Shown here piece after piece: positions 51,398 to 51,661 of a DNA stretch of 64,000 nucleotides. Made by a program: the position numbers and the translations under genes. Position 1 is the first letter of the stretch; the number at the start of each line of letters is the position of its first letter. The notes beneath the pieces are model-generated. The model was not told the origin of the DNA and made no database searches. It was given only the letters and a program-made list of their open reading frames with translations. Source of the DNA: the human T2T-CHM13v2.0 reference genome, Homo sapiens. The DNA lies in the NCBI GenBank assembly GCA_009914755.4, contig CP068257.2, forward strand, positions 19,360,001-19,424,000, read 5' to 3'.

Positions 51398-51661
51398 TTT
51401 TTTTTTTTTTTTTTTGAGACGGAGTCTCGCTCTGTCGCCCAGGCTGGACTGCGGACTGCAGTGGCGCAATCTCGGCTCACTGCAAGCTCCGCTTCCCGGG
51501 TTCACGCCATTCTCCTGCCTCAGCCTCCCGAGTAGCTGGGACTACAGGCGCCCGCCACCGCGCCCGGCTAATTTTTTGTATTTTTAGTAGAGACGGGGTT
51601 TCACCTTGTTAGCCAGGATGGTCTCGATCTCCTGACCTCATGATCCACCCGCCTCGGCCTC
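51398..51661 (-). mobile_element. AluYb8/Yb9 element (minus), 5'-truncated relative to Alu orientation
   Basis: Near-consensus, CpG-rich AluY sequence. It contains ggactgcggactgc, the reverse complement of the GCAGTCCGCAGTCC 7-bp tandem duplication that is diagnostic of the Yb lineage. The element stops at gcctcggcctc|gcatatttcc, so about 40 bp of the Alu 5' end are missing. It has a long poly-T (A-tail). Confidence 0.75.

What the first reader, a model, noticed from the sequence alone, without database searches (positions are those of the whole stretch)
51398..51661. Young AluYb8/Yb9 insertion (human-specific subfamily), 5'-truncated
This element is almost free of CpG decay. It carries ggactgcggactgc, the reverse complement of the GCAGTCC duplication that defines the Yb lineage. 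That lineage expanded after the human-chimpanzee split and contributes many presence/absence polymorphisms. This supports a human origin for the window and marks a locus that may be dimorphic in populations. Only part of the left monomer is missing (about 40 bp).
Basis: partly seen in the sequence, partly recalled or inferred. Interest (0 to 1): 0.55.

Follow-up and report, generated by a model that had tools for sequence, protein, structure and literature searches.

The report
Young truncated AluYb8a1 in NCAM2 intron
This is an ordinary, already catalogued young human Alu repeat of the Yb8 lineage (Yb8a1 type), missing its first 42 bases and its flanking duplications, and lying backwards in what appears to be the first intron of NCAM2.

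Summary
Window 51398-51661 is a minus-strand Alu: a T18 run (the A18 tail) at 51398-51415 and a 246-bp body at 51416-51661.

- **Match to consensus.** The body matches AluYb8 consensus positions 43-288 at 245 of 246 bases. It includes the GCAGTCC duplication and 19 of 20 consensus CpGs.
- **Subfamily.** The one difference, 259 G>A, defines AluYb8a1 (Ahmed et al. 2013). Position 174 is C, so it is not Yb9.
- **Already catalogued.** Strand, length (267 bp) and consensus span (304-40) match one entry in that paper's Table S1: ID 10035, chr21:22421331-22421597 (hg19). This puts the window at the start of NCAM2. An NCAM2-like signal-peptide exon in a CpG island sits at window 950, where that mapping predicts it.
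- **Age.** Zero divergence gives an age under about 3.4-4.6 My, so the insertion is very probably human-specific.
- **Not tested.** The empty-site test in other apes and the polymorphism look-up could not be run.
- **Independent sample.** A human gut-metagenome contig carries the same 5' junction.
- **New detail.** There is no target-site duplication. The likeliest cause is L1-mediated insertion with 5' truncation and a small target deletion.

Nothing here is novel.

The parts
51398..51415 (-). Uninterrupted A18 tail of the Alu (T18 on the + strand).
   Evidence: It abuts ...ACTATTAA on the left and the Alu 3' end (GAGACGG on the + strand) on the right.
51416..51661 (-). Alu body, consensus positions 43-288. 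It comprises the rest of the left monomer, the A-rich linker and the complete right monomer.
   Evidence: 245 of 246 bases identical to the AluYb8 consensus, 246 of 246 to Yb8 with 259A; sub-threshold Metazoa_SRP match on the minus strand at 51414-51568 (56.5 bits, gathering score 70).
51446..51459 (-). Tandem GCAGTCC GCAGTCC, the 7-bp duplication that marks the Yb lineage.
   Evidence: unique in the window, 0 expected by chance; it aligns as the 7-base insertion relative to AluY. Its position agrees with PMC3831846.
51445..51445 (-). Consensus position 259 is A (t on the + strand). This is the only difference from Yb8 and the mutation that defines Yb8a1.
   Evidence: the difference list is [(259, G, A)].
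51662..51664 (-). Ambiguous junction bases (gca on +, TGC in Alu sense). TG matches consensus 40-41 and C mismatches G42. They are either flank or microhomology, or Alu bases 40-42 with one substitution.
   Evidence: the local alignment starts at consensus 40. This reproduces the published annotation '304-40, 267 bp'.

Best explanation
The feature is a retrotransposed copy of an AluYb8-lineage SINE with the Yb8a1 sequence type. It lies antisense about 50 kb into intron 1 of what appears to be human NCAM2 (chr21, about 22.42 Mb in hg19).

Inferred mechanism:
- A Pol III transcript of a Yb8a1 (or Yb8) source element was copied into the genome by L1 ORF2p through target-primed reverse transcription. 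Priming took place on a T-rich nick: the + strand reads ...TTAA followed by the T-run.
- The cDNA was joined to the other side of the break at Alu position 43 rather than position 1. This probably involved loss of a few to some tens of bases of AT-rich target, so no target-site duplication was formed.
- The insertion is at most a few million years old.

The copy lacks bases 1-42. From general knowledge of Alu, that stretch holds the A box of the internal Pol III promoter and part of the SRP9/14-binding 5' domain. The copy is therefore most likely inert, and is not a source element.

Shown here: sequence identity, subfamily, truncation point, tail and the absence of a TSD. Inferred: the insertion mechanism, the target deletion, inertness and human specificity.
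For: - **Identity to consensus:** 245 of 246 bases match Yb8 positions 43-288. The single change is at 259.
- **Subfamily definitions:** Yb8a1 is 259 G>A, Yb9 is 174 C>G, Yb11 adds a T after 200, Yb8b1 is 260 G>A. The element has 174 C, no T insertion, 259 A and 260 G.
- **Catalogue entry:** Table S1 of PMC3831846 has exactly one entry with minus strand, Alu span 304-40 and 267 bp. It is ID 10035, AluYb8a1, chr21:22421331-22421597. These are the values obtained here for 51398-51664.
- **Locus:** That mapping predicts the start of NCAM2 near window position 700. The window has a CpG island in its first 2 kb. An ATG at 950 encodes MSLLLSFYLLGLLVSSGQ and is followed by a CAAG|GTAGGA splice donor. 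CNV tables in PMC8724545 bound the NCAM2 start between 22.27 and 22.57 Mb.
- **Age:** P(0 substitutions) at 6.5 My is 0.003-0.014. The 95% upper bound on age is 3.4-4.6 My.
- **Tail:** A pure A18 tail.
- **Precedent:** 14% of new human Alu insertions are 5' truncated, 20 of 45 of them by 26-50 bp. The two insertions without a TSD were both 5' truncated and had 10-19 bp AT-rich target deletions relative to chimpanzee (PMC4607524).
- **Independent sample:** The same 5' junction is present in an independent human-derived contig.
Against: - No TSD is present. No k-mer of 8 or more is shared next to the junctions. The best flank-to-flank alignment is no better than composition-matched shuffles (p = 0.25). 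A hallmark of classical TPRT is therefore missing, and the mechanism of 5' truncation is inferred, not shown.
- The empty ancestral site was never seen (all returned 0).
- 259 G>A is a CpG transition. It also restores the AluY state, so the Yb8a1 sequence type could be a private mutation of a Yb8 copy rather than inheritance.
- The NCAM2 assignment rests on my memory of the signal peptide and gene coordinates. The protein search returned no named NCAM2 protein.
Confidence: 0.85

Rival explanations
1. A full-length Yb8a1 with normal TSDs inserted first. A later, unrelated deletion then removed Alu bases 1-42, the 5' TSD and some flanking DNA.
For: The present structure, truncated and without a TSD, is equally what this scenario predicts.
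Against: It needs two events within a short time, since the body shows zero substitutions. 5' truncation at insertion is common, at 14% of new Alus (PMC4607524). The independent human contig shows the same junction.
Confidence: 0.12
2. Endonuclease-independent insertion: the Alu cDNA or RNA patched a pre-existing double-strand break. This would explain the missing TSD and the truncation.
For: No TSD and a 5' truncation.
Against: The A18 tail is intact and is joined to a T-rich target (TTAA followed by the T-run on the + strand). That is what L1 endonuclease priming gives. From general knowledge, break-repair insertions are usually 3'-truncated or lack tails and sit at atypical sites.
Confidence: 0.06
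3. An old, 5'-truncated Alu already sat here, and a Yb8a1 copy overwrote it completely by gene conversion. The insertion event would then be ancient and shared with other apes.
For: The flanks show weak similarity, 23 of 29 columns, in the positions where decayed TSDs would lie. Gene conversion among Yb elements is discussed in PMC3831846.
Against: That similarity is explained by composition (p = 0.25 against dinucleotide shuffles). The body is perfect from the first to the last base, and the tail is a pure A18. The conversion tract would therefore have had to cover the whole element and its tail exactly.
Confidence: 0.03
4. Subfamily-level rival: the copy came from an ordinary Yb8 source and acquired 259 G>A afterwards as a private CpG transition. 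It would then be Yb8a1 by sequence state only, not by descent.
For: Position 259 is the G of a CpG, and CpG sites mutate 6-10 times faster (PMC4607524). Only 77% of catalogued Yb8a1 copies trace to a single source (PMC3831846). With one substitution allowed, the clock is still compatible with a young age.
Against: None of the other 19 CpGs and none of the 206 non-CpG bases has changed. A single hit falling exactly on the subfamily-defining site is less likely than inheritance.
Confidence: 0.25

Closest known systems
AluYb8a1 (Ahmed, Li & Liang 2013, Mob DNA 4:25, PMC3831846), specifically Table S1 entry ID 10035, chr21:22421331-22421597 (hg19), minus strand, Alu 304-40
   Same: The sequence state is Yb8 plus 259 G>A, without 174 G and without the T insertion after 200. 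Strand, length (267 bp) and consensus span are the same.
   Different: Nothing detectable; it appears to be this very element. The identification depends on mapping the window to chr21, which is supported but was not confirmed by a genome alignment.
AluYb8 consensus
   Same: Every covered Yb8-specific base is present: 57T, 64T, 89T, 96C, 98A, 144C, 211A, 236T, 248G, and the 7-bp duplication.
   Different: Position 259 is A instead of G, and bases 1-42 are absent.
AluYb9 / Yb10 / Yb11 / Yb8b1
   Same: They share the Yb8 backbone and the duplication.
   Different: The Yb9 and Yb10 marker 174 C>G is absent. The Yb11 T insertion after 200 is absent. The Yb8b1 marker 260 G>A is absent (definitions).
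TSD-less, 5'-truncated polymorphic Alu insertions #30 and #40 of Konkel et al. 2015 (PMC4607524)
   Same: They are 5' truncated, have no clear TSD and sit in an AT-rich target.
   Different: In those two cases a 10-19 bp target deletion was shown against chimpanzee. Here the ancestral site could not be examined.

Membership tests
Alu SINE (7SL-derived dimer) | Sequence similarity to the Alu consensus across left monomer, A-rich linker and right monomer | tested here: met
   245 of 246 bases identical to Yb8 positions 43-288. Metazoa_SRP matches on the same strand, below the gathering score as expected for an Alu.
Alu SINE (7SL-derived dimer) | 3' poly-A tail | tested here: met
   A18 at 51398-51415.
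Alu SINE (7SL-derived dimer) | Flanking target-site duplications from classical TPRT | tested here: not met
   No shared k-mer of 8 or more next to the junctions. Flank similarity is no better than dinucleotide shuffles, p = 0.25. A minority of genuine insertions lack TSDs, so this does not remove Alu identity.
Alu SINE (7SL-derived dimer) | Complete 5' end with the Pol III A box (needed for an active source copy) | tested here: not met
   The element starts at consensus position 43. That the A box lies within bases 1-42 is from general knowledge.
AluYb8 lineage | Tandem duplication of 7 nt at AluY positions 246-252 | tested here: met
   The definition is quoted in PMC3831846.
AluYb8 lineage | Yb8 point substitutions relative to AluY | tested here: met
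   All covered differences between the recalled AluY and Yb8 consensuses are in the Yb8 state, except 259. Positions 64, 144 and the C>G transversion are confirmed as diagnostic in PMC4607524.
AluYb9 | C>G at position 174 | tested here: not met
   Position 174 is C. PMC3831846 writes 274 once and 174 elsewhere. PMC4607524 says 174. In the recalled consensus 274 is a G, so 174 is the consistent reading.
AluYb8a1 | G>A at position 259 on a Yb8 backbone, without the Yb9 mutation or the T insertion | tested here: met
.
AluYb8a1 | Descent from the Yb8a1 source rather than a parallel CpG mutation | not testable with these tools
   This needs the other genomic Yb8a1 and Yb8 copies and a phylogeny. 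The paper reports 77% from one source.
Human-specific insertion | Empty orthologous site in chimpanzee, gorilla and orangutan | not testable with these tools
   No ape genome was available. Flank scans of metagenome and prokaryote-genome contigs returned 0. There is only indirect clock support.
Polymorphic (dimorphic) mobile-element insertion | Both filled and empty alleles present in human populations | not testable with these tools
   The filled allele was seen in one independent human-derived contig, and no empty allele was found. Supplements of PMC6639938 have no entry, and that method would probably not detect a truncated, TSD-less copy. The prior is 22 of 75 reference Yb8a1 copies polymorphic.

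The most novel reading that the evidence does not exclude
The Alu did not insert classically. Its arrival either deleted a stretch of ancestral NCAM2 intron 1 (retrotransposition-mediated deletion) or patched a chromosome break. The locus would then mark a small human-lineage sequence loss, and it may still be segregating in human populations.
Probability: 0.35. Interest if true: 0.2.

Novelty: already known. Interest (0 to 1): 0.1.

Why it matters
It matters little beyond bookkeeping.

- The element identifies the window as human and pins it to a catalogued locus, apparently the start of NCAM2.
- It gives a cleaner subfamily call, Yb8a1 rather than Yb8/Yb9.
- It is an example of the minor class of 5'-truncated Alu insertions without a TSD.

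If the copy were dimorphic it would be one more population marker. It lies about 50 kb from the nearest exon seen in the window, antisense and truncated, so an effect on NCAM2 is not expected.

Tried and rejected
- **Empty site or orthologue from public contigs.** Two flank 26-mers were scanned in metagenome contigs and in genome contigs. All four scans returned 0.
- **Exact-ORF look-ups around the element.**
  - Flanking ORFs and the 3'-junction ORF are not on record.
  - The exon-1 read-through ORF is also not on record.
  - Only the 5'-junction ORF gave a contig, L001. That contig is a chimeric assembly. It follows the window exactly for 442 bases, then jumps into the neighbouring inverted AluS.
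- **Naming NCAM2 by protein search of the exon-1 ORF.** The search returned only three anonymous ORFs.
- **Degenerate TSD.** A first null from random window positions made the flank similarity look significant (0.02-0.1%). A composition-matched dinucleotide-shuffle null removed the signal (p = 0.25). I rejected it as a TSD.
- **Literature look-ups.** Coordinate strings found nothing relevant in main texts. They also found nothing in the AluMine supplements. The ME-Scan paper has no supplements held.
- **Rfam at gathering thresholds.** No match over the whole window.

Full report
**Observation.** On the + strand, window 51398-51415 is a run of 18 T. Window 51416-51661 is the reverse complement of an Alu body. 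None was expected in 100 dinucleotide-preserving shuffles.

I aligned the reverse complement to the AluY and AluYb8 consensus sequences, which I recalled from memory.
- The element covers Yb8 positions 43-288.
- It differs from Yb8 at one base, G>A at position 259 (window 51445).
- Against AluY it differs at every Yb8-specific position and carries the 7-base insertion.

The recalled consensus is in register with the published numbering. It has C at 174, T at 200, and G at 259 and 260. These are the bases that the literature describes as mutated in Yb9, Yb11, Yb8a1 and Yb8b1. A 245/246 match to an independently recalled sequence cannot be chance.

**Subfamily.** Ahmed et al. 2013 (PMC3831846) define four types:
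- Yb8 by the duplication of AluY positions 246-252.
- Yb8a1 by 259 G>A.
- Yb10 by 259 G>A plus the Yb9 mutation.
- Yb11 by a further T insertion after position 200.

Konkel et al. 2015 (PMC4607524) confirm 174 as the Yb9 position and define Yb8b1 by 260 G>A. The element has 174 C, no T insertion, 259 A and 260 G. It is therefore Yb8a1 by sequence state, not Yb9.

Two caveats apply:
- 259 G>A is a CpG transition. It could be a private mutation of a Yb8 copy, and the paper traces only 77% of Yb8a1 copies to one source.
- 259 A is also the state that a clean 7-bp duplication of AluY would give. Yb8a1 is therefore formally the same sequence as a 'Yb7' lacking that change. This follows from direct comparison of the recalled consensuses.

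**Youth.** The element keeps 19 of the 20 consensus CpGs in the covered part. It has no substitution relative to Yb8a1. The other 22 Alu matches in the window are 74-91% identical to AluY and have 0.5-6.1 CpG per 100 bp, against 8.0 here.

I used the neutral rate from Ahmed et al. (0.15% per My) and a 6-10 times higher CpG rate. The results are:
- The probability of zero substitutions after 6.5 My is 0.003-0.014.
- If one substitution from Yb8 is allowed, that probability is 0.02-0.07.
- The 95% upper bound on age is 3.4-4.6 My.

According to PMC3831846, 80% of Yb copies are human-specific and the Yb8a1 average age is 1.93 My. Taken together, a human-lineage insertion is very likely, but it was not shown directly.

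**Where it is.** Table S1 of PMC3831846 lists 99 Yb8a1, Yb10 and Yb11 copies. Exactly one entry is on the minus strand with Alu span 304-40 and 267 bp. It is ID 10035, AluYb8a1, chr21:22421331-22421597 in hg19. A local alignment of the window element starts at consensus position 40, because TG at 51663-51664 happens to match. With the tail, it spans 51398-51664, which is 267 bp on the minus strand.

That mapping puts the window start near chr21:22,369,934. From memory, the NCAM2 transcription start is at about chr21:22,370,633, and its protein begins MSLLLSFYLLGLLVSSGQA. The window agrees with this:
- The first 2 kb are a CpG island (GC 52%, CpG observed/expected 0.8).
- An ATG at position 950 encodes MSLLLSFYLLGLLVSSGQ.
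- A CAAG|GTAGGA splice donor follows it.

CNV tables in PMC8724545 bound the NCAM2 start between 22.27 and 22.57 Mb and show no other coding gene nearby. A protein search did not return named NCAM2 proteins. The gene name therefore rests partly on my memory. If the mapping holds, the Alu lies about 50 kb into intron 1, antisense to the gene.

**Independent copy.** An exact look-up of the 37-aa ORF that crosses the 5' junction found one contig from a human gut metagenome (ENA ERZ981791). The contig matches the window without a mismatch for 442 bases. That stretch covers the flank, the junction and the first 33 Alu bases, including the Yb-specific 57T and 64T. The contig then switches into the inverted AluS at window 52051 onward, which is an assembly chimera. 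This confirms the filled allele and its odd junction in another human sample. It also supports a human origin for the window.

**Anatomy of the junctions.** In Alu sense the element reads ...AAAGGAAATATGC | GAGGCCGAGG ... CCGTCTC A18 | TTAATAGTAAATAT.... No k-mer of 8 or more is shared next to the two junctions.

A weak gapped similarity between the flanks first looked significant against random window positions. It is fully explained by their extreme AT/T richness, with p = 0.25 against dinucleotide shuffles. There is no detectable target-site duplication.

The tail is joined to a T-rich target (TTAA followed by the T-run on the + strand). This is compatible with L1 endonuclease priming.

Konkel et al. 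give the precedent:
- 14% of new human Alu insertions were 5' truncated, most often by 26-50 bp.
- The two insertions without TSDs were both truncated. Compared with chimpanzee, both showed 10-19 bp deletions of AT-rich target.

**Mechanism.** The best-supported reading is L1-mediated target-primed reverse transcription of a Yb8a1 (or Yb8) transcript. The 5' end was joined prematurely at base 43, and a small target deletion removed the TSD.

The copy lacks bases 1-42. From general knowledge, that stretch holds the Pol III A box and part of the SRP9/14-binding domain. The copy should therefore be inert.

Three rivals remain, all with low probability:
- A later deletion of the 5' end and the TSD.
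- Endonuclease-independent break repair.
- Complete gene conversion of an older Alu.

All three are separated by a single comparison with the ape orthologous site, which could not be made here.

**Verdict.** It is refined to Yb8a1, with no TSD and a probable location in NCAM2 intron 1. The element is a catalogued reference-genome repeat of a well-known kind. Human specificity is probable, and dimorphism is unknown, with a published prior of 29% for reference Yb8a1 copies. Interest is low.

Noticed in passing
window 1-2000, especially 640-1005: CpG island (GC 52%, CpG observed/expected 0.8) containing an ATG at 950. It encodes MSLLLSFYLLGLLVSSGQ and is followed by a CAAG|GTAGGA splice donor at 1004/1005. 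By my memory this is exon 1 (signal peptide) of human NCAM2. Upstream are GCC/GCT-rich triplet runs at about 700-760.
   Followed up: partly
window 315-397: Hexamer tandem repeat (CAGCAT) x 14.7 with 89% matches, just upstream of the presumed NCAM2 promoter and 5' UTR.
   Followed up: no
window 51975-52255 (+), with L001: An older AluS-like copy (83% to AluY, 3 CpGs) lies inverted, 311 bp from the 5' end of the young Alu. The inverted pair caused a fold-back chimeric join in a public metagenome contig (L001, positions 443 onward). In the pre-mRNA it could form a long hairpin.
   Followed up: partly
window 50755-51026 (-): An AluY-like copy (90.5% to AluY, 11 CpGs) lies in the same orientation, 372 bp from the tail of the young Alu. 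This is a direct-repeat arrangement of the kind that can mediate Alu-Alu recombination.
   Followed up: no
window 46004-46234 (+): A 5'-truncated Alu (consensus 50-279) with the second-highest CpG density in the window: 14 CpGs, 6.1 per 100 bp, 88% to AluY. It is less decayed than its neighbours.
   Followed up: no
window 46545-46790: Tandem duplication of a 127-bp unit, 2 copies with 82% matches, just downstream of the Alu above.
   Followed up: no
window 12271-12321; 58863-58972: Dinucleotide microsatellites: a perfect (TG)25, and a compound (TG)22-(GA)32.
   Followed up: no
P0001-P0003: Three anonymous ORFs from JGI, Logan and ENA contigs are 52-71% identical to the read-through ORF of the presumed NCAM2 exon 1. 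They are probably host DNA of other mammals in metagenomes, which suggests the exon-1 region is conserved.
   Followed up: no
literature: PMC3831846: The paper gives the Yb9 diagnostic position as 274 in its Background and as 174 in its Results. PMC4607524 uses 174, which fits the consensus (C at 174, G at 274).
   Followed up: yes
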